64,000 nt of DNA from Candidatus Niyogibacteria bacterium RIFCSPLOWO2_01_FULL_45_48 (GCA_001819395.1 MHMQ01000032.1:20150-84149), one strand, 5' to 3'. Counted from the first letter of the stretch, positions 4,941 through 43,168 are shown. Translations and numbers: made by a program. Notes: generated by a model not told the origin, from the sequence alone.

Positions 4941-7061
4941 ATGAAAATGAGGGTATTTGCAGCGGTCGTTACAATTATTATATTTTTAGGCGTTTTCGGC
5001 GCTCCGAAAGCTCACGCGGCATTAACCGAAGCCCAGATCCAGGCGATTTTGGGCCTTCTGCAATCGTTTGGCGCTGACCAGAGCGTTATAAATAACGTCA
5101 ACTCGTCGCTTCGTGGCGGGGTAGCGGTTGCGCCTTCAGGAACCGTACAAATCGCGCTTTTCACCGAGAATCTGGGTTGGGGGTCCACGCATCCCGAAGT
5201 TTCAAAACTGCAGCAGTTTTTAAAGGAGCGTGGATATTTTACCGGAGAAGTGACCGGAAGCTTTTTTGGCGCGACAGCGCAGGCAGTCAAAACATTCCAG
5301 TCTAAATACCAAATTGAGCAGAGCGGCTATTTCGGCCCGCAAACCCGCGCGGTTGCCAATAATATTTTACAAGGCGGGCAGACCCAGCCTTCCATCACCG
5401 TCCTTTCGCCGAATGGGGGAGAGGTGTGGGAAATTGGTTCTACAAACAGAATTGAATGGAAAAATTCGAATCTCCCCAGTGGCTCGGATCCGATAAACAT
5501 ACAATTGGTAAATGAACAAGGGGTTCTTATTACGACAATTGCTCAAGGTGTAGCAACGGGGGGTGTTTCCACAGGAGTGGGCGGGGGGGCGTATATGTGG
5601 ACTATTCCAAGTTCAATGAGCTCGGGCACTTATCGTATTAGAGTTATTTGCACCAAAGAACTTGCAGACTGTTTTTCTGGAAGCCTTCCTGTTAGCGATA
5701 CAAGCGACGCGCCGTTCAGTATTGTGGCACCCACAACGACGACCCTGCCTTCCGCCGGCTCTCTTTCTGTTTCGCTTGATTCCGCGACAAGTTTTGGATT
5801 TAGGAATGTGCTTATCGGATCAACCGGTGTTAGCCTTGCCAGCCTTAGATTCACTGCGGTCGGCGAAGATATCGATGTCAAACAGATAGCGCTTCAACTT
5901 TCGGACACCGCCCTTAACACTCCGGACGACCTTTTAAATCGAGAAATTCAACTCTACGACGGGAACGCTGTTTTGATCGGCCGGGCGGTTTTTACAACCG
6001 GCGATTACGCGATATCGACAAACATAATTAATTTCAGGGTGCCCGGAGGAGGATCCAAAGTCATGTTTATCAAGGGCGATATTGCCGCCAATGCGACTAT
6101 CGGCGACACGCTGAAAGTTGATTACGACGGCAATAATGCCGGTCTTGGAGGAAATTATGGTGTTGGTTGGACATCAGGCAATACCATTATTCCAACAGGT
6201 TCTGACACCGCTTCAGCCGGAGTTAAAATTATAAGTCCAACATCGGCAACCCAGCCCTCAATCACCGTTCTTTCGCCGAATGGCGGAATCGCCCAACTGT
6301 CCGGAGGCGCGTTTGATATTAAGTATAGAACTTCGGGTGTTTCGCGAATTGGTTTGGTTTTGATTAAAAATGGCGTGACGGTTTCTAGTGTTGGTATGTT
6401 CGACCAACTTGCCGACGGCGAGCACAGCGTGGCTTTCCTTGTGGGCCCACACAACGAACAAACTATCGGAACAGGAAGCGGATACAAAGTTAAGATTTAT
6501 AATTGGGATAACGCGAGTACTGTTGATGAGAGCGATGCTTTGTTTAGTATCGTGAAGCCGTCCCTGACCGCAAGCCTTGATGCGGGTTCTCCTGCTGGTT
6601 CTATTCTGGCGGGGACCTCCCGCGTTTCTTTAATGAGGGTTAAATTGTCGGCGGGGGATAGTGACGTGAAAATCAACGGCGTAACTATTCAAGACAACGG
6701 CGCAGGCGGCAGAATATCAAATTTAGAACTAACGACACCGACGCAACAAGATGCCGAAACTCACTTGGCCAATGGCGTTGCCATGGGCGGCGGCAGATAT
6801 CAGTTTTCGGCTCCCATCACGATTCCGGCAAACGGCAGTAAATTGCTGGACATTAGAGTCAATGTTTCGCCAACAGCATCGGGAGGCGTGTGGCTGACGT
6901 TTGAAAGTGTTCTTCATGGTTATGGCAACAGTTTGGTTGTCAGCGGTTTGGGATTTCAGGGCTCAATTCTCAACATAACCGGAACGTCGTCAATTGTTCC
7001 CAATGCCAGAAACTTTGCGAATATTTTTCAGTGGTGGCCTTTGACGATGGCTCCTCGCTAG
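4941..7061 (+). CDS. secreted Ser/Thr/Gly-rich surface protein with peptidoglycan-binding (PG_binding_1-like) domain and internal repeats
   Basis: Signal peptide MKMRVFAAVVTIIIFLGVFGAPKAHA; PG-binding-like stretch HPEVSKLQQFLKERGYFTGEVTGSFFGATAQAVKTFQ; repeated QPSITVLSPNGGE modules at approx nt 5390 and 6250. Confidence 0.65.
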   Translation: MKMRVFAAVVTIIIFLGVFGAPKAHAALTEAQIQAILGLLQSFGADQSVINNVNSSLRGGVAVAPSGTVQIALFTENLGWGSTHPEVSKLQQFLKERGYFTGEVTGSFFGATAQAVKTFQSKYQIEQSGYFGPQTRAVANNILQGGQTQPSITVLSPNGGEVWEIGSTNRIEWKNSNLPSGSDPINIQLVNEQGVLITTIAQGVATGGVSTGVGGGAYMWTIPSSMSSGTYRIRVICTKELADCFSGSLPVSDTSDAPFSIVAPTTTTLPSAGSLSVSLDSATSFGFRNVLIGSTGVSLASLRFTAVGEDIDVKQIALQLSDTALNTPDDLLNREIQLYDGNAVLIGRAVFTTGDYAISTNIINFRVPGGGSKVMFIKGDIAANATIGDTLKVDYDGNNAGLGGNYGVGWTSGNTIIPTGSDTASAGVKIISPTSATQPSITVLSPNGGIAQLSGGAFDIKYRTSGVSRIGLVLIKNGVTVSSVGMFDQLADGEHSVAFLVGPHNEQTIGTGSGYKVKIYNWDNASTVDESDALFSIVKPSLTASLDAGSPAGSILAGTSRVSLMRVKLSAGDSDVKINGVTIQDNGAGGRISNLELTTPTQQDAETHLANGVAMGGGRYQFSAPITIPANGSKLLDIRVNVSPTASGGVWLTFESVLHGYGNSLVVSGLGFQGSILNITGTSSIVPNARNFANIFQWWPLTMAPR

Positions 7062-7077
7062 ATTTTGTTTAACTAAA

Positions 7078-8103
7078 GTGTCGGTTAACCCCAAATCAAA
7101 ATTAGTTAAAGAAGTTTTGGACTTAAAAAAAGTCGGGCAGGCGCCGACGAGGAACGGGTATGGGGAAGGATTGGTGGAGGCGGGCAGGAAAGACAAAAAT
7201 GTGGTGGTGCTTTGCGCTGACCTGACCGAATCCACGCGTTCGGAAGCGTTTGCCAAAGAATTTCCGGAGAGATTCGTTCAAATGGGTGTGGCCGAGCAAA
7301 ATATGGCTTCGGTTGCGTCCGGCATGGCCGCGGTCGGCAAAATTCCTTTCATTTCTTCTTACGCCATGTTTAGCCCGGGGAGGAACTGGGAGCAGATAAG
7401 AACGACGATTTGCTATAACGAACGGCATGTGATTATCGGAGGCGCGCATGCGGGGGTTTCGGTGGGTCCTGACGGCGCGACGCATCAGGCAATTGAAGAT
7501 ATTGCCATAACCCGCGTTTTGCCGAATATGACCGTGATTGTGCCTTGCGATGCGGTTGAGGCCAAAAAAGCGACTGTGGCCTCGGTGGGGCTGAAAGGCG
7601 CTGTGTATCTTCGCTTTGCCCGCGAAAAAACGCCGGTATTCACAACCGACAAAACTCCGTTTAAGGTTGGACGTGCTGAAATACTTTGGGATTCAAGCGG
7701 TAGTCCCTCGCTTCGCTCGGGACGATCACGGCTTGACGTAGCCGTGATCGCTTGTGGGCCGTTGGTTCATAACGCGCTTTTGGCCGCGGCAGATTTAGAA
7801 AAGAAAGGGATCAAGGTCCGCGTTATCAATAACCACACCATAAAGCCGATGGACGAGAAAACTATTTTGAAAGCCGCAAAAGATGCGGGCGCATTAGTAA
7901 CGGTTGAGGAGCATCAGATAAACGGGGGAATGGGCTCGGCCGTGGCCGAAATAATCACACGAAATTATCCCGTGCCGATTGAATTTGTCGGAGTCAAAAA
8001 CCGCTTCGGCGAGTCAGGAGAGCCAACCGAACTTATTGAACATTTCGGTATGTCGTCAAAGCACATAATTGAAGCGGCGCGTAGGGCGATAAAGAGAAAG
8101 TAA
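7078..8103 (+). CDS. transketolase, C-terminal (pyrimidine-binding/C-domain) subunit
   Basis: GTG start; GYGEGLVEAG, FVQMGVAEQNM, GATHQAIEDIA motifs of transketolase C-half. Confidence 0.9.
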   Translation: MSVNPKSKLVKEVLDLKKVGQAPTRNGYGEGLVEAGRKDKNVVVLCADLTESTRSEAFAKEFPERFVQMGVAEQNMASVASGMAAVGKIPFISSYAMFSPGRNWEQIRTTICYNERHVIIGGAHAGVSVGPDGATHQAIEDIAITRVLPNMTVIVPCDAVEAKKATVASVGLKGAVYLRFAREKTPVFTTDKTPFKVGRAEILWDSSGSPSLRSGRSRLDVAVIACGPLVHNALLAAADLEKKGIKVRVINNHTIKPMDEKTILKAAKDAGALVTVEEHQINGGMGSAVAEIITRNYPVPIEFVGVKNRFGESGEPTELIEHFGMSSKHIIEAARRAIKRK

Positions 8104-8201
8104 GAAATCAACTATAAATGTAAACCCTACGTCGCAAGCTCCTCAGGGTCCTCAAAAAATATAGTCGCTACAGCTCCTTATTTTTTGGGAAATAAAAAAA
8201 A

Positions 8202-8229
8202 CCGCCGCGGGAAGCGTTTCCCCGCGGCG
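8202..8229 (-). terminator. rho-independent terminator for the minus-strand gene ending at 8272
   Basis: CGCCGCGGG / CCCGCGGCG 9-bp GC stem preceded on + strand by an A-run (T-run on minus strand). Confidence 0.55.
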
Positions 8230-8271
8230 AGCGTTCTAAACGTCCCACTCAGACGTCTTTCGTGGCCAGTT

Positions 8272-9029: not shown

Positions 9030-10022
9030 TTAAAGTCTTTTTGGTTTGTAGTCAGTGGGGGCTTCAGCTAAATATTTTTCTAGTTGTTTTCTGGTCAAGA
9101 GCCCTTTTTGCGCGCCTATTTGTTGGACGACTGACATTGAGTTGACCGGCCCCCACATGAGGGCGGTCGGAATGTCAAAACCGAGTGCCATGGCCGCGGT
9201 AAAAGTGGAAGAAAAAGAATCTCCGGCGCCGGTGCGTTCAAAGGGCGGTTTGGGGTCGGGATACATCGGCATATACCAGCATTCTTTGCCGTCGTGGGCG
9301 TAGGCGCCGTTCGGACCGTCGGTAATGACCGCAATTTTCGGGCCGAGCTCATGAATGCCCGAAAGTAATTTTTTAACGTCGCGCTCGCTTGTTTTTAAAA
9401 TTCGTTTGGCTTCGCCGACATTACAGAAAAAAAGTTCTGAAACAGAATAAATGTCGGCCAGCTGTTCCGAGCCCAGCTTTATCTGAAAAGTGCCGGGCTG
9501 GAATGCGAGTTTGGTTTCCGGATGGTTTTTGAGCCATTTGGCGATTTCGTGGTGGTAGGGAAGAGAGTTTTCCGCTAAAGACGAAAGATAGAGCCAGCGC
9601 GGGGCCGGAATATCCGGAAACTTATAATCGTATTCCTGGTGCTTTATTAAAATAGTCCGTTCTTCTTCATACCATAAAACATAATGATAGTTTGTTTCCT
9701 TGTCTTTATGGGTTTTGACGAATTCGGAGTTTACTTTTTCTTTTTTGAGTGTTTCCAGACATTCTTTGCCGTTTAGATCGTCGCCCATGTTTGAAACAAG
9801 ACCAGAAGCAAGGCCCAGGCGCGAGGCCGATACAGCGGCATTCGGGCTGTTGCCTACAGCCCGCACTACCTCCACGAATTCATAAGGCACCTTCTCGCCG
9901 AAGCTGAAACAGAGCTTGCAGTGCTCGCGGTTAATGTCGCAATTGACCGAGGCGTCTTTTATTCTGATAAAAGCATCTGTCGTAATGTCGCCCAAAGCGA
10001 CGAAATCCAGAGTTTTTTTCAT
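9030..10022 (-). CDS. PfkB-family carbohydrate/nucleoside kinase (ribokinase-like)
   Basis: 330 aa; C-terminal TGAGDSF...motif of ribokinase/PfkB family; GNSPNAAV N-terminal sugar-binding region. Confidence 0.75.
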   Translation of the reverse strand: MKKTLDFVALGDITTDAFIRIKDASVNCDINREHCKLCFSFGEKVPYEFVEVVRAVGNSPNAAVSASRLGLASGLVSNMGDDLNGKECLETLKKEKVNSEFVKTHKDKETNYHYVLWYEEERTILIKHQEYDYKFPDIPAPRWLYLSSLAENSLPYHHEIAKWLKNHPETKLAFQPGTFQIKLGSEQLADIYSVSELFFCNVGEAKRILKTSERDVKKLLSGIHELGPKIAVITDGPNGAYAHDGKECWYMPMYPDPKPPFERTGAGDSFSSTFTAAMALGFDIPTALMWGPVNSMSVVQQIGAQKGLLTRKQLEKYLAEAPTDYKPKRL

Positions 10023-10067
10023 AGGATTATTATAGCATCTGCCGAAGAATGTGTTAAAATGTGAATA

Positions 10068-10937
10068 ATGAAAATTCTTAAAGAGTATTTAGCGGAGGCT
10101 GGGAACGACGGCTTGGCCATAGGCCATTTCAACATTTCAAACCTTGTGCAGTTAAAAGGCATTTTATCAGCGGTAAAAAAGACGGGTGTTCCGGTAATGA
10201 TCGGGACGTCCGAGGGCGAGGCGGACTTTATCGGTTTTAAAATGGCCAGGGCCATGGTTGATGCGGTACGTGAGGAAACGGGGCTTCCGATATTTTTAAA
10301 CGCTGACCATTTTCACAGCTTTGAAAAAGTCAAAGAGGCGATTGACGCCGGATACGATTCTGTTTTGATTGACCTGTCGCGCGAGAATTATAAAAAAAAT
10401 CTGGAAGAAACCAAAAGGGTTGTTGAATACGCCCATAGCGTTAACCCAGCAATAAGCGTTGAAGGAGAGCTTGGTTATTTGGTGACCGAATCGTCAAAAG
10501 TGTACAAAGAGTCGTTTGAAATTCCTTCAGAATCGCTGACCAAGCCCGAAGAAGCCTTGAAATATGTAAACGAGACCGGTGTGGACAGATTCGCGCCAGC
10601 AGTCGGAAATTTGCACGGGATTGCGGCGAATGAACCGAAACTGGACTTCGAACTTATTAAAAAAATTCGGGCGGTTTTGCCTTCGGAAGTTGCGATGGTT
10701 TTACACGGAGGTTCTGGGATACCCGACGACCAGATGCGCGAGGCGGTCAAACTCGGTTTTAATAATATACATATTTCAACCGAAATCCGCGTGGCCTATG
10801 TTGACGCTCTTCGCAAAATGCTCGCCGCCGCCCCCGAAGAAACCACGCCCTATAAAATTTACAAACCAGTCATTGAGGCAGTTGCCTCCAAAACCGCCGA
10901 AAAACTGGAACTTTTCGGAAGTGTTAACAAAATTTAA
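10068..10937 (+). CDS. fba: class II fructose-bisphosphate aldolase
   Basis: 289 aa; LAIGHFN, DHFHSF, LHGGSG zinc-aldolase signatures. Confidence 0.85.
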   Translation: MKILKEYLAEAGNDGLAIGHFNISNLVQLKGILSAVKKTGVPVMIGTSEGEADFIGFKMARAMVDAVREETGLPIFLNADHFHSFEKVKEAIDAGYDSVLIDLSRENYKKNLEETKRVVEYAHSVNPAISVEGELGYLVTESSKVYKESFEIPSESLTKPEEALKYVNETGVDRFAPAVGNLHGIAANEPKLDFELIKKIRAVLPSEVAMVLHGGSGIPDDQMREAVKLGFNNIHISTEIRVAYVDALRKMLAAAPEETTPYKIYKPVIEAVASKTAEKLELFGSVNKI

Positions 10938-29801: not shown

Positions 29802-32480
29802 ATGCCTCCATTTGGAAATTTCACCATTAAGGCGCAGGAAGCGATTCGCCGAGCTCACGAGCTGGCTATTGAGCGCGGTCAGAATCAGGTAGACGCCATG
29901 CATTTGCTCGCGGCCTTGATGCTTCAGGAAGAGGGCATAGTTATTTCTATTTTTGACAAAATGGATATTGACCCGGCCGACATTATGGATACGGTAATGG
30001 ACACTCTGGATTCAAAAACCAAGTCAAACGTTTTGATGCCGTCAAGCCAGATGTTTTTGAGCCAGGAATTCGGCCGTATTCTTGATACCGCTTACCGCAT
30101 AGCCCAGTCGATGAAAGACGAATTTATTTCAACCGAACATTTGTTTATGGCTCTCTTTGATGTTCCGTCCAAGGCCCAGAATGTTTTAGCTTCAAACCAC
30201 ATACAGCGCGAGACGGTAAAACATGCTCTTGACGATTTGCGGGGGTCGGGCCGCGTGACCGACCTTGAGCCCGAAACCAAAATGAAGGTTCTTGAGCGAT
30301 ACGGACGCAACTTGACCAAGCTTGCGCGCGAAGACAAGCTTGATCCGGTTATAGGCCGTGACAACGAAATACGCAGGATAATGCAGATACTTTCGCGCCG
30401 GACCAAAAACAATCCTGTCTTGATAGGAGAAGCGGGGGTGGGCAAAACCGCGGTTGTCGAGGGACTGGCGCGCAAGATTGTTTCCGGCGATATTCCGGAC
30501 GCTCTTAAAGACAAAGAGCTTATTGCTCTTGATCTGGCTTCGTTGGTCGCGGGAACGAAATACAGAGGCGAATTTGAGGAGAGGCTTAAAGCGGTTATGC
30601 GCGAAATAGAAAAAGCAGAGGGCAAAATAATACTTTTTATAGACGAATTACACACTATTGTGGGCGCGGGCGCGGCCGAGGGAGCGATTGACGCTTCAAA
30701 CATGCTTAAACCGGCTTTGGCCAGAGGAGAACTGCATGCCATAGGCGCCACAACCCTTAAAGAGTATCAGCGCCACATTGAAAAAGATTCGGCGTTAACC
30801 CGGCGTTTTCAGCCGGTTTACGTTGAGGAGCCTTCCCAAAAAGATGCGGTGAGTATTCTTCGCGGAATCAAGGAGCGCTACGAAATACACCACGGAGTGC
30901 AGATAACCGACGCCGCGCTTCAGTCCGCGGTTCAACTGTCCAGCCGTTACATAACCGACAGGTTTTTGCCGGATAAAGCGGTTGATTTGGTAGACGAAGC
31001 AGCCTCTGCTTTGCGTCTGGATCTCGACAGCATGCCGGGAGAACTTGAGAAAGCCAGAAACGACGCAACGAGAATGGAAATAGAGAAAGAGGCTCTGAAA
31101 AAAGAGGAGGGAGTTTCGCCAAAAAACAAAATAAAAAAATTACAGCGTGAAATAGACAGCTTGCGTGAAAAAACATCGGGGACGGAGATGAAATGGAAAA
31201 ACGAAAAGGAAACCATCGCCAATATAAGGCAATTCAAAAAAGATTTGGACGCTCTTCGCCAGGAAGCCGAAGCGGCGGAACGAGCGGCCGATTTGTCGAA
31301 AGTTGCCGAAATAAGATATGGCCGGGTTCCGGAGCTTGAGCGCCGGCTTTTGGCGGAAGAGACGCGCTTGCGCAAGCTTCAGTCTTCGCGCAGCATTTTA
31401 AAGCAGAAAGTCGGACCGGAAGATGTGGCCGAGGTTGTCGCCCGCTGGACCGGAATTCCGGTGACTAATTTATTGGAAACAGAGGCAAAAAAGCTTTTAC
31501 GCATGGAGGAAGAACTCGGGCAGAAGGTTGTCGGACAAGAAGAGGCGATTTCCAAAATCGCAAATGCGGTAAGACGCTCGAGGGCCGGAATAGGAGATCC
31601 GTCGCGTCCGATAGGATCGTTTATGTTTCTGGGTCCCACAGGGGTTGGAAAAACGGAACTTGCGCGCAGGCTTGCCGAATTTATGTTTGATGACGAAAAA
31701 GCCATGATCCGCGTTGATATGTCCGAATACATGGAAAAACACGCGGTATCGAAACTTATCGGCTCTCCTCCGGGCTATGTCGGCTACGAAGAAGGGGGAC
31801 AGCTTGCCGAATTGATACGCCACCGGCCTTACGCGGTCGTGCTTTTTGACGAGATAGAAAAGGCCCATCCGGAGGTATTTCACATAATGCTTCAGATTCT
31901 TGATAATGGACGTTTGACCGACGCCAAGGGCCGGCATATTAATTTTAAAAACACGATTGTTATTATGACTTCGAACGTCGGCTCGGAATTCGCGCGCGAG
32001 CTTGGCCGGCTTGGTTTTGAAACATCGGAAGACAGAGACGGAGACGGAAACCGCGAAAAAGGCCTGAAAGACAAAATTATGATGTCGCTTGAGCAAAGAT
32101 TCAGGCCGGAATTTTTAAACCGGCTCGATGAAATAATTATTTTCAACCCATTGGGCCGCGAAGAAATCGCGAAGATCGTTGATATCCAGCTGCGGGAAGT
32201 GCGTGAACGGTTGGCCGACAAAGGGGTGGGTTTTGAGTTAAGCAAAGAAGCAAAAAATTATTTGGCCAGCACGGGCTATGACCCGAATTTTGGCGCGCGT
32301 CCGTTGAGGCGGCTGATCCAGTCCAAAATACTGAATGCCGTTGCCGAGCGCATGATAGCCGGTTCGGTTAAGGCCGGCGACAGATTGGTTATCGATGAAA
32401 AAGGGGGGAACTTGGCAATAGAATCAAAATCGGAAGTCCGTAAAAAGACTTCAAAAAAGGCCAAAAGCGCGGTAAGATAA
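29802..32480 (+). CDS. clpB: chaperone ClpB (two AAA+ modules)
   Basis: 892 aa; N-domain, two Walker A motifs ([20 protein letters not shown]), long middle coiled coil, GYVGY pore loop. Confidence 0.95.
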
Positions 32481-34074: not shown

Positions 34075-34145
34075 GGGGGTATGGTTCAATGGTAGAACAT
34101 TGGTCTCCAAAACCAAAGATCAGGGTTCGATTCCTTGTACCCCCG
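34075..34145 (+). tRNA. tRNA-Trp (anticodon CCA), copy 1
   Basis: Acceptor GGGGGTA/TACCCCC, D-stem GTTC/GAAC, anticodon stem TTGGT/ACCAA with loop CTCCAAA, T-arm CAGGG-TTCGATT-CCTTG (one G-U). Confidence 0.85.
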
Positions 34146-34193
34146 CATTGAAAATTTTGGCATCTTTTGATGCCTAGAATTTCAAATTTGATA

Positions 34194-34410: not shown

Positions 34411-34481
34411 GGGGGTATGGTTCAATGGTAGAACATTGGTCTCCAAAACCAAAGATCAGGGTTCGATTCCTTGTACCCCCG
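34411..34481 (+). tRNA. tRNA-Trp (anticodon CCA), copy 2, identical to copy 1
   Basis: Same sequence 336 bp downstream. Confidence 0.85.
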
Positions 34482-34529
34482 CATTGAAAATTTTGGCATC
34501 TTTTGATGCCTAGAATTTCAAATTTGATA

Positions 34530-35691: not shown

Positions 35692-35804
35692 GCGCGAAAC
35701 TCGCCCCCTTTTTGTTTGGCCGCACATGCTTTTCAAATATATTGTTTTATGCAAGTATTCTTTTGGCGAGAGGTGCGCCTCTCAATGCCAGAAAGGAGGA
35801 GGGT

Positions 35805-36437
35805 ATGCCCTTCACCGAAGGACTGGAAGCGTTGATTGGAAAAAAAGGCCGTATTACCGATACAGAGTGGTTGGTCTTGATTGAGGCCAGGCGCAAACTC
35901 ATTAAACCGCACCTTGATTCATTTACTCTTCCGATACTTGGGTCATTAAAATGTTTGCGAAACGAACTTAGTTTTAAACACGAGATTGATTGTGATATTT
36001 CCGTATCCGGTGGGGATCAGCGTTTTTCGCTAAAAACTCAAGGGTTTTTCTGGGCCCAACCTTGGTCTGCTGTGGAAAGGATTTCTAATAGCGGATCTTG
36101 TAATTGGCCCGGCTACGTAGCTTGTCCTGACGGAACTATGCATATCTGGGGCCTTACGCGTTCTGGTTTGTGGGTTCTCGTGACCATTGAATTTGTCGGC
36201 GAATCCGGATATAAAGAGCGTGGCTATGAGCGGGCAAAATCTGTAAAAATTTTTGAAGCCGATTTACGCGCGATCATAGAAAAAACGAAAGAAAATCCAA
36301 GACACATGTGGAGTCATCTCGGCGCGGTTATTAAAAGTTTCGCAGAGCGCCGTAAGTGTCTGTATAACCAAGCTCTTGATCTTGCCCGAATGGTCGAAAT
36401 TGAGGAACTGGCTCTTTCAATTGTTTTGGGGAAGTAA
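35805..36437 (+). CDS. hypothetical protein
   Basis: ATG at 35805 preceded by GGAGGAGGG; 210 aa, Cys-containing, no known motif. Upstream in-frame start at 35712 lacks RBS. Confidence 0.4.
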   Translation: MPFTEGLEALIGKKGRITDTEWLVLIEARRKLIKPHLDSFTLPILGSLKCLRNELSFKHEIDCDISVSGGDQRFSLKTQGFFWAQPWSAVERISNSGSCNWPGYVACPDGTMHIWGLTRSGLWVLVTIEFVGESGYKERGYERAKSVKIFEADLRAIIEKTKENPRHMWSHLGAVIKSFAERRKCLYNQALDLARMVEIEELALSIVLGK

Positions 36438-36503: not shown

Positions 36504-36860
36504 ATGGAGAACAAAAAACATTTTTACACTTGGAAAAATTTTGAATCGGATGTTAAGAAATTAACATCGGCATTAAAGCACAAAAAATTTGACGGCATCT
36601 GGGGGCCGGCGAGGGGAGGGTTGCCTATCGCGGTCTGCCTTTCGCACGCCCTTGATCTGCCGTTTTTAGAAAAATCAAAAAGCGAAAAAACCTTGATTGT
36701 TGACGACATAGCGGACACCGGAAAAACTCTTGAACCGTTTTTTAAAAAAGGCCATACGATTGCCACAATTTTTTACCATCACCAAAGCAGATTTGAACCT
36801 CACATCTGGCTTCGCGAGAAAAAAGACGAATGGATAGTTTTCCCGTGGGAAAAAACATGA
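36504..36860 (+). CDS. small phosphoribosyltransferase-domain protein (purine PRTase-like)
   Basis: 118 aa; PRPP-binding motif LIVDDIADTGKTL. Confidence 0.65.
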   Translation: MENKKHFYTWKNFESDVKKLTSALKHKKFDGIWGPARGGLPIAVCLSHALDLPFLEKSKSEKTLIVDDIADTGKTLEPFFKKGHTIATIFYHHQSRFEPHIWLREKKDEWIVFPWEKT

Positions 36861-38401: not shown

Positions 38402-38527
38402 ATTTTTTGGGGTTGACACCGGCCATTTTTATACGGCTGGTTTTGTTTTTTGTTTGATTTTTTTGGCTGGCGGTTTATATTCTGGATAGGTTATCCGCCC
38501 GTTGAAAACTGAATAAGGAGAAAAAAG

Positions 38528-39856
38528 ATGACCAAAATTTCCGAATGTCTGAAAAAGAAAATTGGAGAAGAACTTTGGGAAACCTTAAAAAGAATTCGTC
38601 ACGAAAACAAAAAGGGGTTTATTAGAACCCCCGAAGCGAAAGCTGTTTTGTCCCGGCTTGTGGAAATTAATCTGAAGCCGAAAGAATTTGAGGACCTGCT
38701 TGGATACAAGTGGGGAAGTGTCAAAAACGCACTTTCTTATCACCAAATCAAGAAACCAGTTCACAAAGCCGAAGTTGCGGCACACGACATTAATTCCCCC
38801 GAATTTAGCGAAAGATTTTTTAAGTTTGTGCGCAGCAAGACGGTTGTGGAAATGTGCGAGGAATTTAATTTGAGTGACGAACAGGTAAGTACGCTTTTGG
38901 CAAATCCGCCTGCGGAACATGGCATATATAAGGATTCCAGCAGGCACACGGCTACCTACTTCTGTATTTTTAAAGGCAAAAATGTCGAGCCGAAAGATAG
39001 GATTTGGAATTATGTTTTGGCTAAAGACGATGGAGCCGCGGTTGATATCGTGTTTCCGAAAGATATTGGTTGGAAAAAAGAAAGGTCCGGAGATTCGTCT
39101 GAGCGCAGATTGGAAAAAATGCGCATTGTGCCCATGGCCGACATTTGGCTTGGCGACCCTCTTCACGACTCAGCGCTTTTGGACGAGAGAATAGCCTGGA
39201 TTGCCAGAGAGCCGCACATTTTTTGGTTTTTTAACGGAGATGCGATTAAACCCCCGACAGCAAAAGAAATTAAAGACGGCGTGCTGGAAAAACTTTATCT
39301 TGAGTTGAGAACAAAACTTGCGCCGATTTCACACAAGTGGCTTTGGGCGCAAGAAGGGTGTTTTGAGACGAAGTTGCATGCGACCAAAGACGCATTTGAT
39401 CCGATTGACGACCTTTGTGATGAGTGGGATGTGCCATATTTCAGAACTCCGGTTTCCGTCGGCCTTCATTGGGCTGGAAATTTATTTAAGTTTTACTGTA
39501 TTCATGGAAAATCGCAGGCTCAGAAAAAGGGTTCAAAAATCAACGCCATCGCGCGCATCCTTGGTGAAGTGGAATTCAACCATTTTTATGTTATGTCTCA
39601 CATCAAGGATTCGATTTCTAGCAAACAAGTGCGTGTTTCCCAAGACGTGTTGAATTTTGATTTGGCGGAAAAAAAACAATATTTATTCATCACACCCTCT
39701 TTTGTGAAGTACGATCGGTCTCGTGATGCGAAGTGGGGATATCCTCTTCCTGCCAGAGGGCAAGCAAGCTGCGCCTTGTATATAGACGGCGATTATCATT
39801 TTTATTCTTCACCAATAGCCACAGGTCTGGTTGCTGTGGGGGAGGACAACATATGA
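38528..39856 (+). CDS. calcineurin-like metallophosphoesterase paralog with degenerate metal-binding motifs (probable pseudoenzyme) plus unknown N-domain
   Basis: 442 aa; aligns motif-for-motif with next gene: VPMADIWLGD / LVPLSDLQWG, FFNGDAIKP / FLNGDILNN, but GNHE replaced by QEGCFE and GHVHE by SHIKD; RBS AAGGAG 8 nt before ATG. Confidence 0.5.
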   Translation: MTKISECLKKKIGEELWETLKRIRHENKKGFIRTPEAKAVLSRLVEINLKPKEFEDLLGYKWGSVKNALSYHQIKKPVHKAEVAAHDINSPEFSERFFKFVRSKTVVEMCEEFNLSDEQVSTLLANPPAEHGIYKDSSRHTATYFCIFKGKNVEPKDRIWNYVLAKDDGAAVDIVFPKDIGWKKERSGDSSERRLEKMRIVPMADIWLGDPLHDSALLDERIAWIAREPHIFWFFNGDAIKPPTAKEIKDGVLEKLYLELRTKLAPISHKWLWAQEGCFETKLHATKDAFDPIDDLCDEWDVPYFRTPVSVGLHWAGNLFKFYCIHGKSQAQKKGSKINAIARILGEVEFNHFYVMSHIKDSISSKQVRVSQDVLNFDLAEKKQYLFITPSFVKYDRSRDAKWGYPLPARGQASCALYIDGDYHFYSSPIATGLVAVGEDNI

Positions 39857-40890
39857 CCTCGCAAAAATTCACCTTACTTGGAAAAAAATTTGAAGAATTA
39901 ATGAAAAGAGGAATTGTTCCCAAAGAATCTTTACTCAAAGAGTCCGGTTTTTCGGAAGAGCAGATTAAAAAAATGCTTGGCCGCGATGTGGAAGGCGGCC
40001 GCATTTTTGAACAAAGGGTTGAAAAGGAAATTTATTACCGCTTAATCAGAGAAACACCGCCGGTAGTTACTCAGGAGCGCGTTTGGCAATACGCCCAGTG
40101 CGCGGATCGCAGAAAGCCGTATTTCTGGTTTCAATTTCCGAATACCGATTGGAAAAAAATAATTTTGGTTCCTCTTTCCGACCTTCAGTGGGGTTCGGAA
40201 GAATGTGACGTCGCCCAACTTAAAGATTATGTCAAATATATCGGGGAGAATGACCATGTTTTCGCGTTTCTCAACGGAGATATCCTGAATAACGCTTTGC
40301 CGGATTCTCCCGGCGGTTCAATTTTTTGGGATGTGGCGAGACCCCGCGAGCAAGTAAGGACCGTGATTGATTTACTGGCCCCAATCGCTCACAAAATTCT
40401 TTGGGCATTGCCCGGTAATCACGAAGAGCGCACAATCAAGAGGGCAGATATAGATCCTTTGTTCTGGATTTGCCAGAAACTTGGCATTCCTTATTCGGAT
40501 CAGCCAATTTTTGCCGATATTCTTTGGCGGAGCCACCGTTTCAATTTCTATTGTTTTCATGGCATCAGCGGTTCCAGAACTATGGGTGGCAAGTTAAACG
40601 CGGCCATGCGTCCGATTGATTGGACCGAGTTCACGATGTTTTACATAATGGGGCATGTTCATGAACCAATGGGCAACCCTGTTACAAGAAGGTGTGTTCT
40701 TAGGGAGTATGACAGCAAGGGGGGTTTGACCGGCTTGCGGGTTGTTGACAGAGATCAGTATGTGATTATATGCGCGGCTTGGCTGAAGTTTTGGGGAGGT
40801 TACGGCGCAAAGATGGGTTTTTCTCCGCAGTCTCAAGGCGGAACCCCGTGCCTTTTGTATAAAAACGGCGATTACGGAATCTCGGAGTAA
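39853..40890 (+). CDS. calcineurin-like metallophosphoesterase (Mre11/SbcD-type motif set) with ~110-aa N-terminal extension
   Basis: ATG 39853 overlaps previous stop (ATGA), GGAGGA 6 nt upstream; motifs SDLQWG, GDILN, GNHEE, FHGISGS, GHVHEP. Confidence 0.6.
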   Translation: MTSQKFTLLGKKFEELMKRGIVPKESLLKESGFSEEQIKKMLGRDVEGGRIFEQRVEKEIYYRLIRETPPVVTQERVWQYAQCADRRKPYFWFQFPNTDWKKIILVPLSDLQWGSEECDVAQLKDYVKYIGENDHVFAFLNGDILNNALPDSPGGSIFWDVARPREQVRTVIDLLAPIAHKILWALPGNHEERTIKRADIDPLFWICQKLGIPYSDQPIFADILWRSHRFNFYCFHGISGSRTMGGKLNAAMRPIDWTEFTMFYIMGHVHEPMGNPVTRRCVLREYDSKGGLTGLRVVDRDQYVIICAAWLKFWGGYGAKMGFSPQSQGGTPCLLYKNGDYGISE

Positions 40891-40921
40891 GTGTTTTGGT
40901 TAATTTTAAGTTAAATTTTAT

Positions 40922-40957
40922 AATCCCCTCGGCAATTTGTCGGGGGATTTTCTTTTT
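40922..40957 (+). terminator. rho-independent terminator after phosphoesterase gene
   Basis: AATCCCC-13 nt loop-GGGGATT followed by TTCTTTTT. Confidence 0.5.
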
Positions 40958-40996
40958 GGAGGATTTTAGTATAATGAACCAAGACACGACGGTTTT

Positions 40997-43135
40997 TTGA
41001 AAACAAACCCTCGGGAGGCAAAACCCATGGTCGGTAGCGAGAAAAACGGAAATCCGGCCGGGGGCGGTTCTTCCGGCGGGATTCCAGAAATTTTGCGGAT
41101 ATTGCCTGCCAGCATAACCAAAACCGTGGTCTTTCCTCACCGGCTTTTCACGAACCTTTCTTACGCCACAAACAACAAGAAAATGGTCTCCGACCTAAAA
41201 CTGGCCGCAGAAGACGGCCATGCGTTTGTTTTGGTCTCGGTAAACGGCAAGGTGACGGAAATAGGAGTTTTGTGCGAAACAAAGAATTTCAGATTTTTCC
41301 CTAAAAACGGAGTGGTGTCTGTTGATATCAAGCCGCTTAAACGCGTTTACTGCACTGAGATTGTGTTTGCTCCCGATCCGGCTGCCGGGTTTACGCGCGT
41401 GAAGTGGAATTACCGAAACGAAATCGCGGTTAGTCCCGAAAGAGGAGAAGAAAAAAGCTTTGTTGATAAGATGATTGCCCTATGTTTTTCTTTCCATGAG
41501 TTTGAGAGTGCCATTGGCGGATCTCTTAGCGAGTCCGAAGGGAAATATTTTGAAAATGCCAATAGGCTTTTGGGAGAGCTGAACGCGGAAAATTTGTCCG
41601 AAACTCTGGATATAATAATGGCCGTTTTACAAAACGTTTATTGGACTTGGGAAGATTTTGACTTCGGAACCCCGGCATTCATCATATTAAAAGAAGAGAA
41701 TGTTGAAACCAGGTTGGATAGGGTTGTAGAATTGCTGGAGATTATTTTCCATCATGTTATGGATTATGGCTTGCTTGGCGACGACGATGTCTGGAGGACC
41801 GGTTCATTGCCGGAAAGGGCGCTCGTAAAATATGACGCGAAAAAACCGGCTGTAGACACGTCTTTGGCCGAGGTAAATATCCGGGAAGAGCTTGCAAAAC
41901 CGAGAAAAACAACAAAACCTCCCATGATCATTTCGGCTGGCGTTCGCCACGGATCAACGACTTTGCTGGACCACAAGAAACCCGACGCTTTTTCCAAAAA
42001 TGTAGTTGAATTTCTTGACCAGCGCGTTGTTGGTCAGGAGAGGGCGAAGATTCATATGGCCAGAGTGTTTTTGCGCATAAAACTTGGACGAACCGATCCG
42101 CGCCGCCCGTTAATAGGCGGAATCTTTTGCGGTCCGACAGGTGTTGGAAAAACAGAATTGGTTAAGGCCGGCGCCGAATTTATGTTCGGAGATTTTAACG
42201 GTTATACTCACATAGGATGCAATACTTTGCAGGAGCATCATGACGTCAAGTGTCTTGATGGCGCGCCGCCAAGCTACGTTGGCTACAACGACGACACAAT
42301 TTTAGCCCAATGGCGCCTTGATAGGCCGCATTTTCTGTGGCACATGAGCCAAAAGCACGGAGTTAAAATTGGCGATACGAAAAAAGTTTTAAGCGAGCTT
42401 TCATCAAAACACCCGCAGTTTACCGAAAAACAAGTAATGACCGCATCTGGATATAGGCCCGAGGATAAGTACTGGTCAATCGTACTTTTGGATGAGATAG
42501 AACGGGCGCACCCGGCTCTTTACTCGTTTTTGCTGCGAATTTTTGATGACGGAACTCTTGCCTTAAAGAACGGCGAATTCACGGATTTGAAGCGGACTGT
42601 GTTTTTTTTGACATCAAATATTCACGGAAAAGAAATTCTTGAAGAAGGGTCCGGAAAAAATATAGGCTTCCATCAGGCCGGAGAAAACTTGTCCGTAGAG
42701 AAAAGATTCGTGAGCCAGACATGGAAAGAGGTTGTTGGCGCTGTTGTGAAGCACTTTTCTTCAAACCCGGCTTTTTTGGGCAGGATCGGAAAAGAAAACC
42801 TGATTGTCTTTTACCCGCTTGGAGCGAAAGAGCTTTTGCAAATTCTTGAAAATATATATTTGCCGGAATTTACAGAATACATGAAAGAAAAAGCAGGAAT
42901 AGACAAATTTTTTATAACGGATAAGGCAAAAAACCTTGTTATTGCGGAAACAAGAGATCCGACAAGCAGAGTTTTGGGCGCAAGAGCACTTAAGAAGGTT
43001 TTTGAGCGTATGGTTGAAATCCCCGTTTTAAATCTTCTGGCGCGAGCCGAAGAGGGAGACGGGCTGAAAGCAGGCGATCGCGTTTTGGTTGACGCAAAGG
43101 ACGGCGCGATGTTCATTTTTAAGGAAGCAGATTAG
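40997..43135 (+). CDS. orphan single-module Clp/Hsp100 D2-type AAA+ ATPase with unknown ~330-aa N-terminal domain
   Basis: C-terminal ~380 aa align with D2 of the clpB in this window: VVGQERAKIHMARVF...[10 protein letters not shown] (Walker A), PSYVGY pore loop, IVLLDEIERAHP (Walker B), FLTSN sensor-1, C-terminal small domain; ~45-aa insertion between pore loop and Walker B; N-terminal half has no recognisable motif. Internal ATG at 41027 preceded by GGGAGG may be the true start; TATAAT at 40970-40975 upstream. Confidence 0.7.
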   Translation: MKTNPREAKPMVGSEKNGNPAGGGSSGGIPEILRILPASITKTVVFPHRLFTNLSYATNNKKMVSDLKLAAEDGHAFVLVSVNGKVTEIGVLCETKNFRFFPKNGVVSVDIKPLKRVYCTEIVFAPDPAAGFTRVKWNYRNEIAVSPERGEEKSFVDKMIALCFSFHEFESAIGGSLSESEGKYFENANRLLGELNAENLSETLDIIMAVLQNVYWTWEDFDFGTPAFIILKEENVETRLDRVVELLEIIFHHVMDYGLLGDDDVWRTGSLPERALVKYDAKKPAVDTSLAEVNIREELAKPRKTTKPPMIISAGVRHGSTTLLDHKKPDAFSKNVVEFLDQRVVGQERAKIHMARVFLRIKLGRTDPRRPLIGGIFCGPTGVGKTELVKAGAEFMFGDFNGYTHIGCNTLQEHHDVKCLDGAPPSYVGYNDDTILAQWRLDRPHFLWHMSQKHGVKIGDTKKVLSELSSKHPQFTEKQVMTASGYRPEDKYWSIVLLDEIERAHPALYSFLLRIFDDGTLALKNGEFTDLKRTVFFLTSNIHGKEILEEGSGKNIGFHQAGENLSVEKRFVSQTWKEVVGAVVKHFSSNPAFLGRIGKENLIVFYPLGAKELLQILENIYLPEFTEYMKEKAGIDKFFITDKAKNLVIAETRDPTSRVLGARALKKVFERMVEIPVLNLLARAEEGDGLKAGDRVLVDAKDGAMFIFKEAD

Positions 43136-43138
43136 CTA

Positions 43139-43168
43139 AACAGGGCTCGTTCGGAGCCCTGTTTTTTG
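43139..43168 (+). terminator. rho-independent terminator after AAA+ gene
   Basis: AACAGGGCTC-gttcg-GAGCCCTGTT then TTTTTTG. Confidence 0.75.

What the first reader, a model, noticed from the sequence alone, without database searches (positions are those of the whole stretch)
38528..43135. Three-gene insertion between guaB and pcm: degenerate phosphoesterase paralog + phosphoesterase + orphan Clp-D2-type AAA+ ATPase
The flanking genes (guaB with its terminator at about 38419-38455, pcm/mltG downstream) are core housekeeping, so this 4.6-kb block looks like an accessory insertion. Genes A (38528-39856) and B (39853-40890) are translationally coupled through an ATGA overlap. B has its own RBS and is followed by a hairpin terminator. 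Gene C (40997-43135) follows after a TATAAT box and ends with a strong terminator. A and B are paralogs of the same length and motif order. B carries a partial calcineurin-like motif set: GDILN, GNHEE, GHVHEP, with Q rather than H in motif I (SDLQWG). In A the same positions read QEGCFE and SHIKD, which is the pattern of an inactive partner subunit. C has a complete Hsp100 D2 module (Walker A/B, YVGY pore loop, sensor-1, small domain) almost superimposable on D2 of the genuine clpB at 29802-32480. It lacks the N-domain, D1 and M-domain, has a ~45-aa insertion after the pore loop, and carries a ~330-aa N-terminal region I cannot assign. I do not know a described defence, toxin or repair system that pairs a heterodimeric Mre11/calcineurin-type phosphoesterase with a single-ring Clp-type threading ATPase. 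It could be a defence or abortive-infection module, a phage-derived repair module, or a substrate-remodelling phosphatase system.
Basis: partly seen in the sequence, partly recalled or inferred. Interest (0 to 1): 0.85.

Follow-up and report, generated by a model that had tools for sequence, protein, structure and literature searches.

The report
Inherited phosphoesterase pair plus Lon–Clp hybrid ATPase
The three genes are real, but they are not an inserted defence island: they are an inherited part of a gene neighbourhood shared by many Parcubacteria, made of a split two-subunit phosphoesterase of unknown function and a rare protein-unfolding ATPase that joins a Lon substrate-binding domain to a single Clp motor ring.

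Summary
The sequence features are confirmed. A (38528-39856) and B (39853-40890) overlap by ATGA. A terminator-like hairpin and a TATAAT box separate B from C. C runs 41027-43135 (ATG start, not the TTG at 40997).

The "accessory insertion / defence" reading is not supported.
- The order guaB-A-B-C-pcm-mltG recurs in two other genomes.
- In 26 fetched loci the A-B slot holds one fused protein (X714 family). Its N-part aligns to A and its C-part to B. A-B is therefore a split pseudo-enzyme/enzyme pair.
- B's predicted fold is closest to the PolD DP1 exonuclease subunit, then Mre11-type phosphoesterases.
- C's motor is a single ClpC-D2-like ring. An IGF tripeptide aligns with the ClpP-docking loop of ClpC.
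- A canonical lon gene fills C's slot in two related loci, one a Sungiibacteria genome.
- PADLOC gave only partial AAA+ hits for C, GC content matches the flanks, and there are no flanking repeats.

Whether the phosphoesterase and the ATPase work together is unresolved. They recur side by side, but always inside conserved synteny.

What is new: the Lon-N/Clp-D2 hybrid (five clusters among 1.84 billion representatives) and an uncharacterised Patescibacteria-wide tandem phosphoesterase.

The parts
38528..39856 (+). Gene A: 442-aa catalytically degenerate paralog of B. It has an N-terminal helical extension, a winged-helix-like segment and a pseudo-metallophosphoesterase core.
   Evidence: ORF; RBS AAGGAG. 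hhalign against the B family E 3e-45. Degenerate motifs are conserved across 12 A-type sequences.
39350..39367 (+). A residues 275-280, QEGCFE, replacing the GNHE motif III. The Cys is nearly invariant in the A family.
   Evidence: Alignments: G277 and E280 invariant, C278 at least 90% conserved.
39596..39610 (+). A residues 357-361, SHIKD, replacing the GHVH motif V. The first His is kept and the second is lost.
   Evidence: H358 invariant.
39840..39856 (+). A/B junction: RBS GGGAGG (39840-39845) and the ATGA start/stop overlap (39853-39856).
   Evidence: Sequence read.
39853..40890 (+). Gene B: 345-aa winged-helix plus metallophosphoesterase. It is the probable catalytic subunit.
40180..40188 (+). 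B motif I, D110-L-Q112. The family consensus is D-x-H; Gln replaces His in this sub-clade.
   Evidence: Alignment A1: D110 is invariant, and Q is seen in the window, P0002, P0004, P0007 and P0014.
40276..40281 (+). B motif II, G142-D143.
   Evidence: Invariant.
40414..40425 (+). B motif III, G188-N-H190-E.
   Evidence: G188 and H190 are invariant; N189 and E191 are at least 90% conserved.
40651..40662 (+). B motif V, G267-H268-V-H270. Motif IV, H236, lies at 40558-40560.
   Evidence: H236, H268 and H270 are invariant.
40926..40956 (+). Terminator-like hairpin (9-bp stem, 6 GC pairs) with a T-rich tail, between B and C.
40971..40976 (+). TATAAT box upstream of C. It is a consensus match only.
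   Evidence: Sequence read.
41027..43135 (+). Gene C: 702 aa from the ATG, with RBS GGGAGG at 41013-41018. Architecture: Lon N-domain, disordered linker, single Clp-D2-type AAA+ ring.
   Evidence: (P0108, 702 aa).
41084..41767 (+). C residues about 20-247: Lon N-terminal (substrate-binding) domain, a beta-barrel followed by a helical bundle.
41768..41986 (+). C residues about 248-320: low-confidence, probably disordered linker.
   Evidence: pLDDT below 50; poorly conserved in alignment A3.
41987..43132 (+). C residues about 321-702: Clp D2-type AAA+ module with the D2-small domain.
   Evidence: AAA_2 E 1.8e-27. Best PDB match is B. subtilis ClpC D2, E 1e-39. 31% identity to the window's clpB D2.
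42131..42154 (+). Walker A, G369-PTGVGK-T376.
42275..42286 (+). Pore-1 loop, Y417-V-G-Y420.
42329..42472 (+). Insertion of about 48 aa after the pore loop, absent from ClpB/ClpC D2. It is longer in relatives that lack the N-domain.
   Evidence: Gap in the alignment to clpB. The same site is expanded in L030 and L048.
42491..42496 (+). Walker B, D489-E490.
42662..42670 (+). I546-G-F548 tripeptide, aligned on the VGF of the ClpC P-loop (ClpP-docking motif).
   Evidence: HMMER alignment to ClpC 3j3t. Conserved as IGF, IGI or FGF in homologs. The role of the PhiGF motif is described in PMC12521514.
43140..43167 (+). Intrinsic terminator after C: stem ACAGGGCTC/GAGCCCTGT followed by T6.
   Evidence: Sequence read.

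Best explanation
The block is two vertically inherited modules inside a neighbourhood conserved across Parcubacteria: htrA-clpB ... guaB-[tandem phosphoesterase]-[Lon-type or Clp-type AAA+ gene, or none]-pcm-mltG-M50-mnmA. It is not a mobile or defence insertion.

Module 1 (A+B).
- It is the split form of a Patescibacteria-wide protein that in most fetched loci is one chain: a degenerate phosphoesterase domain, then a winged helix, then a phosphoesterase domain with a conserved motif set.
- Inferred: A and B form an obligate heterodimer. B supplies the binuclear metal site (D110, D143, N189/H190, H236, H268/H270), and A acts as a scaffold or substrate-binding pseudo-enzyme.
- Inferred, weakest step: the substrate is a nucleic-acid phosphodiester, making the pair an exonuclease or phosphodiesterase. 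This rests on the DP1/Mre11-like fold and the helix-turn-helix domains.

Module 2 (C).
- Shown: the architecture is a Lon N-domain, a flexible linker and one ClpC-D2-like ring, with intact Walker A/B, pore loop and sensor motifs.
- Inferred: it assembles as a hexameric unfoldase that selects substrates through the Lon-type N-domain. It then threads them through the YVGY pore and hands them to ClpP through its IGF loop.
- Inferred: it thereby covers the role of the LonA protease that occupies the same genomic slot in related lineages.

C has its own promoter-like box and terminator and is probably transcribed separately from A-B.
For: Synteny.
- guaB-A-B-C-pcm-mltG recurs in L006 (B 81% identical) and L007 (67%).
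- guaB-fused MPE-C-mltG-M50 is found in L001 and L024.
- guaB-X714-LonA-mltG is found in the complete Sungiibacteriota genome CP066690 (L022).
- X714 ... LonA(P0316)-pcm/mltG is found in L023.
- X714 lies between guaB and pcm/mltG in many metagenomic loci among L025-L047.
- GC content is continuous with the flanks, and there are no flanking repeats.

A-B as a split pair.
- A-upstream / B-downstream pairs occur in every A-B locus. Overlapping start and stop coordinates were read in the window, L002/L003, L048 and L049.
- The A-type motif degeneration is uniform across the family.
- The X714 N-part aligns to the A family (hhalign E 4e-5, prob 70%).
- The X714 C-part aligns to the B family, in register over the winged helix and motifs I-III (E 3e-4, prob 38%).
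- The fused L024 protein passes the Pfam Metallophos threshold.

C.
- P0316 is a true LonA and shares this N-domain.
- The best PDB match for the motor is ClpC D2, and C's IGF aligns on the ClpC VGF.
- The PhiGF motif docks into ClpP H-sites, and mutating it abolishes binding (PMC12521514).
- Catalytic motifs are conserved in all homologs.
- A Patescibacteria locus carrying A-B also encodes ClpP (L008).

Separate transcription is suggested by the hairpin and T-run at 40926-40956 and the TATAAT at 40971.
Against: - No biochemical data exist for any of the three families.
- The two hhalign links between the fused and split forms are moderate only (prob 38-70%).
- B has Gln instead of the metal-ligand His in motif I, and the X714 family has Cys-x-His and Asn-x-His. 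The metal site is therefore atypical, and activity or substrate may differ from Mre11/DP1.
- No ClpP gene lies within the 64-kb window. Its presence in this genome could not be checked.
- The window's own clpB also carries an LGF segment at the same position, so an IGF tripeptide alone does not prove ClpP docking.
- C could be a ClpP-independent remodeller like Skd3.
- The AAA+ gene sits next to the phosphoesterase module in three arrangement types (window type, L030/31, L048). This could mean the two modules are coupled, not independent.
- C's N-domain shows no significant BLASTP similarity to the Lon of L022. An in-situ origin from the resident lon is therefore not shown.
- A split form exists in L005, an N-domain-like gene followed by an AAA gene. 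That points instead to fusion of a Lon-N-only protein with a single-ring ATPase.
Confidence: 0.6

Rival explanations
1. The phosphoesterase heterodimer and the AAA+ unfoldase form one functional machine. Possible versions: a nuclease-plus-unfoldase/protease pair that clears protein-blocked DNA, or an unfoldase that controls the phosphoesterase. Lon, the N-domain-less AAA+ protein and the Lon-N/Clp hybrid would then be interchangeable partners.
For: An AAA+ protease-type gene lies immediately or nearly downstream of the phosphoesterase module in several loci.
- Window, L006, L007: A-B followed by C.
- L001, L024: fused MPE followed by C.
- L022, L023: fused MPE followed by LonA.
- L030/31: fused MPE, then pcm, then AAA.
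- L048: htrA-A-B-AAA, with no guaB or mltG nearby.

Both partners changed form (split or fused; Lon, Clp or hybrid) while staying adjacent.
Against: - All these loci also share other syntenic genes (htrA, guaB, pcm, mltG, parB-relA). Adjacency may therefore be inherited gene order in small, related genomes.
- Many loci carry the phosphoesterase module with no AAA+ neighbour: L002/3/10, L008, L011, L014, L020/21, L025, L027, L037, L041, L043, L044 and L049.
- In the window a terminator-like hairpin and a -10 box separate B from C.
- pcm sits between the two modules in L030/31.
Confidence: 0.25
2. The block is an anti-phage defence or abortive-infection island acquired horizontally.
For: - B-family phosphoesterases occur in phages: 28 INPHARED records, phrog_7339 and a T4-like phage contig, L050.
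- L049 places an A-B pair among unannotated small genes.
- C has weak partial matches to the PADLOC AAA+ models DolB and PDC-M37B.
Against: - A and B have no PADLOC hit. C's hits cover only about 55 residues of the AAA+ core.
- The position is conserved in the core genome across distant relatives.
- Composition is native.
- No repeats and no mobility gene were seen next to the block in the loci whose genes were listed. A GIY-YIG gene about 1.4 kb upstream of A in L048 is the only candidate.
- The fused form is near-universal at this slot in the Parcubacteria loci fetched (86 protein clusters).
Confidence: 0.04
3. C is a ClpP-independent remodeller or disaggregase. It would be a bacterial analog of Skd3/human CLPB (foreign N-domain plus a single D2 ring), not a protease component.
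For: - Skd3 chains are significant hits to C's motor (E about 1e-27).
- Skd3 is a known single-D2-ring disaggregase with a non-Clp N-domain (PMC9584538).
- No clpP lies in the window.
- The L006 homolog has IGI instead of IGF.
Against: - The IGF tripeptide aligns exactly on the ClpC P-loop motif.
- A hydrophobic-Gly-hydrophobic motif is kept in all homologs, including the N-domain-less relatives (IGF in L030, IGL in L048).
- ClpA uses IGL (my own knowledge).
- The gene occupies the slot of a protease (LonA) in relatives.
Confidence: 0.3

Closest known systems
PolD small subunit DP1 and the eukaryotic polymerase B-subunits (Mre11-like phosphodiesterase fold)
   Same: - Six of the seven hits from a B-family profile search of the PDB are PolD DP1 chains.
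- The family, like this one, has both active (DP1) and inactivated (eukaryotic B-subunit) versions. That resembles the A/B split into pseudo-enzyme and enzyme.
   Different: - No DP2 or any polymerase partner appears in any of the 50 loci.
- No OB-fold domain was identified.
- The N-terminus is a winged helix.
- Sequence identity is only 17%.
- PolD is described as exclusive to Archaea (PMC10721889).
Mre11/SbcD nucleases
   Different: No Rad50/SbcC ABC-ATPase gene lies adjacent in any locus whose genes were listed. Here the dimer partner is a degenerate paralog, whereas Mre11 forms a homodimer. Motif I His is replaced by Gln.
LonA protease
   Different: There is no Lon-type AAA+ module, no Lon_lid and no S16 protease domain. 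The motor is Clp D2-type (AAA_2).
ClpC/ClpA D2 ring and ClpX (ClpP-docking unfoldases)
   Same: - Best PDB hit for the motor is ClpC D2, E 1e-39.
- Walker A/B, the YVGY pore loop, sensor-1, sensor-2 (GAR) and the D2-small domain are all present.
- The IGF tripeptide sits at the P-loop position.
- Like ClpX, C has a single ring.
   Different: No Clp_N domain, D1 ring or M-domain. No ClpX zinc-binding domain. There is a 48-aa insertion after the pore loop. The N-domain is Lon-type.
Skd3 / human CLPB
   Same: A foreign N-terminal substrate-binding domain is fused to a single Hsp100 D2 ring (PMC9584538). It gives significant sequence hits to C's motor.
   Different: Skd3 carries ankyrin repeats, not Lon-N. 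It is eukaryotic and mitochondrial. To my knowledge it has no ClpP-docking loop.

Membership tests
Calcineurin-like metallophosphoesterase superfamily (gene B) | Five ordered motifs: D-x-H, GD, GNH[DE], H, GHxH | tested here: met
   B has D110-x-Q112, G142-D143, G188-N-H-E191, H236 and G267-H-V-H270. The one departure is motif I, where His is replaced by Gln in this sub-clade.
Calcineurin-like metallophosphoesterase superfamily (gene B) | Pfam PF00149 match above the gathering score | tested here: not met
   B has no PF00149 hit at E<=1. Many homologs are pre-annotated with PF00149.
Calcineurin-like metallophosphoesterase superfamily (gene B) | Alpha/beta sandwich phosphoesterase fold | tested here: met
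   [not shown]
Calcineurin-like metallophosphoesterase superfamily (gene A) | Complete set of metal-ligand motifs | tested here: not met
   Motif I His is lost, GNHE becomes EGCFE, and GHVH becomes SHIKD. The same losses are seen in all 12 A-type sequences. A is a homolog (E 3e-45) but a probable pseudo-enzyme.
PolD DP1 / polymerase B-subunit | Partnership with a DP2 or polymerase catalytic subunit | tested here: not met
   No polymerase gene lies next to A-B or X714 in any listed neighbourhood.
PolD DP1 / polymerase B-subunit | OB-fold domain preceding the phosphodiesterase domain | tested here: inconclusive
   B residues 1-66 model as a winged helix, and residues 79-109 are short strands. 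No separate domain comparison was run.
Mre11/SbcD | Adjacent Rad50/SbcC ABC-ATPase partner | tested here: not met
   None appears in the Pfam-annotated gene lists of any locus, and none flanks A-B in the window.
LonA protease (gene C) | Lon N-terminal substrate-binding domain | tested here: met
   [not shown]
LonA protease (gene C) | Lon AAA+ module with Lon_lid, and the S16 Ser-Lys protease domain | tested here: not met
   No Lon_lid or Lon_C match. The motor is AAA_2.
Class I Hsp100/Clp (ClpB, ClpC, ClpA) | Clp_N domain, two AAA+ rings (D1 and D2), M-domain | tested here: not met
   Only the D2 half of the models is matched (TIGR03346 positions 561-853, far below cut-off).
ClpP-partner unfoldases (ClpX, ClpA, ClpC) | Hydrophobic-Gly-Phe/Leu tripeptide on the P-loop | tested here: met
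   C's GKNIGFHQ aligns on the NKYVGFNV segment of ClpC and is conserved in homologs.
ClpP-partner unfoldases (ClpX, ClpA, ClpC) | Physical docking to ClpP, and a clpP gene in the genome | not testable with these tools
   No clpP within the 64-kb window. clpP does exist in a related A-B locus, L008.
Known anti-phage defence systems (PADLOC-DB 2.0) | Match of the component proteins to the system models | tested here: not met
   A and B have no hit. C gives only partial AAA+ core hits to DolB and PDC-M37B.

The most novel reading that the evidence does not exclude
The tandem phosphoesterase (split or fused) and the neighbouring AAA+ unfoldase or protease (LonA, the Lon-N/Clp hybrid, or the N-domain-less ring) form a Patescibacteria-specific nuclease-plus-protease machine. 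It could remove protein-DNA adducts or turn over DNA-bound proteins. The hybrid C would recruit ClpP to it.
Probability: 0.12. Interest if true: 0.8.

Novelty: new variant of a known kind. Interest (0 to 1): 0.45.

Why it matters
1. Gene C would be a natural hybrid between the two main bacterial AAA+ protease lineages. It pairs Lon substrate recognition with a Clp motor carrying a ClpP-docking-type loop, and it sits where relatives keep lon. That makes it a concrete case of modular replacement in proteostasis machinery, and a ready-made construct for asking what the Lon N-domain contributes on its own.

2. The A-B / X714 family is a Patescibacteria-wide protein family found at a fixed chromosomal position: 107 split-form B-type clusters and 86 fused-form clusters. 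It has a DP1/Mre11-like fold, an obligate pseudo-enzyme half and variant metal ligands. No function is assigned to it. CPR bacteria have minimal genomes, so a retained family like this is likely to be important to them.

3. For genome scanning, the case is a warning. A block that looks 'foreign' between housekeeping genes can be ancestral synteny in a poorly annotated phylum.

Tried and rejected
Searches that gave little or nothing.
- PADLOC for all three proteins: nothing useful.
- Pfam and NCBIfam on A and B: no hits.
- Flanking direct and inverted repeats as insertion scars: only short, low-identity, T-rich matches.
- GC anomaly: none.

Links that needed family profiles.
- Single-sequence BLASTP of the 714-aa L001 protein against A and against C found nothing.
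- hhalign of that single sequence against the B profile also found nothing.
- The relationship appeared only after a family alignment (A2) was built.
- phmmer of the 714-aa protein against the PDB found nothing.

Other negative comparisons.
- BLASTP of C against the Lon of L022: only the Walker A region matched.
- BLASTP of the L005 333-aa protein against C's N-domain was not significant. That its start looks Lon-N-like is my reading by eye only.

ClpP. A motif search for ClpP in the window found none. Absence from the genome cannot be concluded.

Literature. Searches for a Lon-N/Clp hybrid, for a DP1-like bacterial phosphoesterase and for CPR phosphoesterase families found no description of these proteins.

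Viral fold search with B. It returned only uncharacterised phage phosphoesterases and a few entries named 'DNA polymerase II small subunit'.

Prophage remnant. I considered this and rejected it. There are no phage genes in the block or its immediate flanks, and the synteny is conserved.

Full report
**Observation.**
- The three ORFs are present as described. A is 38528-39856 (442 aa) and has an AAGGAG RBS.
- B starts at ATG 39853, inside an ATGA overlap with A's stop, 7 nt after GGGAGG.
- A 9-bp GC-rich hairpin with a T-run follows B at 40926-40946. A TATAAT hexamer lies at 40971-40976.
- The mechanical ORF for C begins at TTG 40997. However, ATG 41027 has GGGAGG 8 nt upstream and gives the 702-aa protein held in the databases as P0108.
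- A strong hairpin plus T6 at 43140-43167 follows C's stop.
- NCBIfam confirms guaB (TIGR01302), pcm and mltG on the flanks.
- The source is a Candidatus Niyogibacteria genome, according to the name attached to P0001.

**A and B are a pseudo-enzyme/enzyme pair.**
- They are paralogs: BLASTP 26% identity, E 8e-36. hhalign of A against a 30-member B alignment gives E 3e-45.
- The B family has 107 clusters at 90% identity, and every named member is a Patescibacteria-type organism.
- The family keeps an invariant metallophosphoesterase ligand set: D110, G142-D143, G188/H190, H236, H268 and H270.
- The motif I His is replaced by Gln only in the window's sub-clade.
- Twelve A-type sequences from different lineages show the same degeneration. 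The motif I His is lost. GNHE becomes [QEG]GC[FLQT]E with a near-invariant Cys. GHVH becomes [SG]H..D.
- In every A-B locus the A-type gene lies directly upstream of the B-type gene.

**What B looks like.**
- Pfam and NCBIfam give nothing for A or B themselves. PHROGs places both in phrog_7339, annotated 'DNA repair exonuclease'.
- An AlphaFold2 model of B built on the family alignment is confident: pLDDT 87, pTM 0.81. It shows an N-terminal winged-helix-like unit followed by the phosphoesterase sandwich.
- A B-family profile searched against PDB sequences returns almost only PolD DP1 chains, six of seven hits, best E 1.4e-4.
- Single B-like genes occur in phages: 28 INPHARED records and a T4-like metagenomic phage contig, L050. 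None of them is characterised.

**The block is not an insertion.**
- Two other genomes carry guaB-A-B-C-pcm-mltG in the same order. These are L006 (B 81% identical) and L007 (67%).
- In L001 and L024 the order is guaB-[one 714-747-aa protein]-C homolog-mltG-M50.
- The 714-aa protein belongs to a family of 86 clusters (X714). Members come from Nealsonbacteria, Niyogibacteria, Sungiibacteria, Spechtbacteria and other Parcubacteria.
- Its conserved columns include C410-x-H412, G443-D444, G521-N-H-D524, H594 and N623-x-H625.
- Profile-profile comparison aligns its C-half to the B family, in register over the winged helix and motifs I-III (E 3.3e-4, prob 38%). It aligns its N-part to the A family (E 4.1e-5, prob 70%).
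- The L024 version passes Pfam's Metallophos threshold (37.4 bits) and aligns to the X714 profile over 479 columns.
- The fused protein therefore appears to be A-like plus B-like in one chain, in the same order and in the same genomic slot. This is a Rosetta-stone argument that A and B act as one heterodimer.
- In 23 further metagenomic loci, X714 typically follows guaB and precedes pcm and/or mltG.
- A Niyogibacteria genome (L020) has htrA-clpB-L33-X714-mltG...mnmA. This mirrors the window's htrA (28516), clpB (29802)..., mltG, M50 and mnmA.
- GC content is flat across the block, there are no flanking repeats, and PADLOC is negative for A and B.

**Gene C.**
- Residues from about 321 onward are a Clp D2 module. 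AAA_2 scores E 1.8e-27 and ClpB_D2-small is weak. The best PDB match is B. subtilis ClpC D2, E 1e-39. Identity to the window's own clpB D2 is 31%.
- Walker A (GPTGVGKT), the pore loop (YVGY), Walker B (DE), sensor-1 (TSN) and sensor-2 (GAR) are conserved in all homologs.
- A 48-aa insertion follows the pore loop.
- HMMER aligns C's GKNIGFHQ onto the NKYVGFNV segment of ClpC. That segment is the P-loop, whose PhiGF tip docks into the hydrophobic pockets of ClpP. Mutating it abolishes ClpC-ClpP binding (PMC12521514). Homologs keep IGF, IGI or FGF at this position.
- An exhaustive HMMER search with the N-terminal 320 residues found only five clusters among 1.84 billion representatives. One of them, P0316, is a genuine LonA with AAA, Lon_lid and Lon_C domains. 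Another, P0315, is an N-domain-only protein that hits PF02190 at E 1.7e-6.
- An AlphaFold2 model of the N-region is confident for residues 20-247, a beta-barrel plus helical bundle. Residues 248-320 are disordered.

**C sits in lon's place.**
- In the complete Sungiibacteriota genome CP066690 the order is pcm-like, guaB, X714, canonical LonA, mltG (L022).
- P0316, the LonA whose N-domain matches C, lies in X714...LonA-pcm/mltG (L023).
- C therefore occupies the position where related lineages carry lon.
- Origin by replacement of the resident Lon motor and protease is one possibility.
- Fusion of a Lon-N-only protein with a single-ring ATPase is another. A two-gene version exists in L005.
- N-domain-less relatives also exist, with a larger insertion at the same site and an IGF or IGL loop. 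These are L030/31 (X714-pcm-AAA-parB-relA) and L048 (htrA-A-B-AAA-parB-relA).

**Are the two modules coupled?**
- An AAA+ protease-type gene follows the phosphoesterase module in the window, L001, L006, L007, L022, L023, L024, L030/31 and L048. This holds across both forms of each partner.
- All of these loci also share other syntenic genes: htrA, guaB, pcm, mltG and parB-relA.
- About as many loci have the phosphoesterase module with no AAA+ neighbour: L002, L008, L011, L014, L020, L025, L027, L037, L041, L043, L044 and L049.
- In the window, B and C are separated by a terminator-like hairpin.
- I therefore rate independent modules as more likely (about 0.6) than a coupled machine (about 0.25). 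The data do not exclude coupling.

**Mechanism, with the basis of each step.**
- Shown: domain architectures, motif conservation, paralogy, fold assignments and conserved synteny.
- Inferred from the fused form: A and B form an obligate heterodimer, with B catalytic.
- Inferred from fold neighbours and DNA-binding-type domains, and weak: the substrate is a nucleic-acid phosphodiester.
- Inferred from conserved AAA+ motifs: C is an active hexameric threading motor.
- Inferred from the aligned PhiGF loop and the lon slot: C delivers substrates to ClpP and substitutes for Lon.
- ClpP is not in the 64-kb window, and the rest of the genome could not be examined.

**Novelty.**
- None of the proteins carries a functional name in the sources. 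They are called 'hypothetical', 'metallophosphoesterase' or 'HTH domain-containing'.
- Four literature searches found no description of them.
- The Lon-N plus single Clp-D2 architecture is a new variant within known AAA+ families. Its nearest analogs are Skd3 (ankyrin repeats plus D2; PMC9584538), ClpX and LonA.
- The tandem pseudo-MPE/MPE family is an uncharacterised member of the metallophosphoesterase superfamily.
- The defence-island idea that drove the original high score is not supported.

Noticed in passing
window 29802-32480: The 892-aa 'clpB' has a long M-domain region (about 155 aa between AAA_lid_9 and D2). It also carries a ClpC-like segment, [14 protein letters not shown], at the P-loop position where C has IGF. 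It may therefore be a ClpB/ClpC intermediate able to dock ClpP.
   Followed up: partly
window 34075-34146 and 34411-34482: Two tRNA-Trp(CCA) genes lie 336 bp apart, within a tRNA cluster (Tyr 32489, Thr 33560) between clpB and guaB.
   Followed up: no
window 35712-36437: A 241-aa ORF upstream of a short phosphoribosyltransferase-like gene (36504-36860) has no Pfam or NCBIfam match.
   Followed up: partly
L046 7665-9116 / 9065-10081 and L047 2-577 / 423-1190: X714 homologs here are split into two overlapping ORFs. This could be a frameshift, an assembly error, or a natural fission intermediate between the fused and split (A-B) forms.
   Followed up: no
L023 7534-8784; L022 13129-14787: Gene fusions occur in the same neighbourhood: PCMT fused to YceG/MltG (417 aa) in L023, and a phosphoribosyltransferase fused to YceG (552 aa) in L022.
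   Followed up: partly
L007 12184-12507 and 12508-12855: pcm is broken into two adjacent ORFs in this relative. It may be a pseudogene or a sequencing error.
   Followed up: no
L050 (JGI Ga0378408_0000301) 7001-8230: A 409-aa single B-like phosphoesterase with an N-terminal HTH extension sits in a T4-like phage contig. Its neighbours include Portal_T4, Gp23, ribonucleotide reductase, an N6/N4 methyltransferase and DUF932.
   Followed up: partly
L006, L011, L012, L014, L015 record titles: Contigs carrying Patescibacteria-type A-B genes are titled 'Candidatus Saccharibacteria', 'uncultured Gammaproteobacteria' or 'Paludibacter sp.'. L006 is fully syntenic with the Niyogibacteria window. These are probably mislabelled or contaminated bins.
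   Followed up: no
L008 11296-13194 and 19046-19624; L030 5566-8174; L048 10138-12740: In several lineages the phosphoesterase module lies next to parA/parB and a convergent relA/spoT. In L008, trigger factor and clpP lie about 8 kb downstream.
   Followed up: partly
L006 3411-5633 versus window 41027-43135: C evolves much faster than its neighbours. In L006, B is 81% and A 74% identical to the window proteins, but C is only 38% identical, and its IGF is IGI.
   Followed up: no
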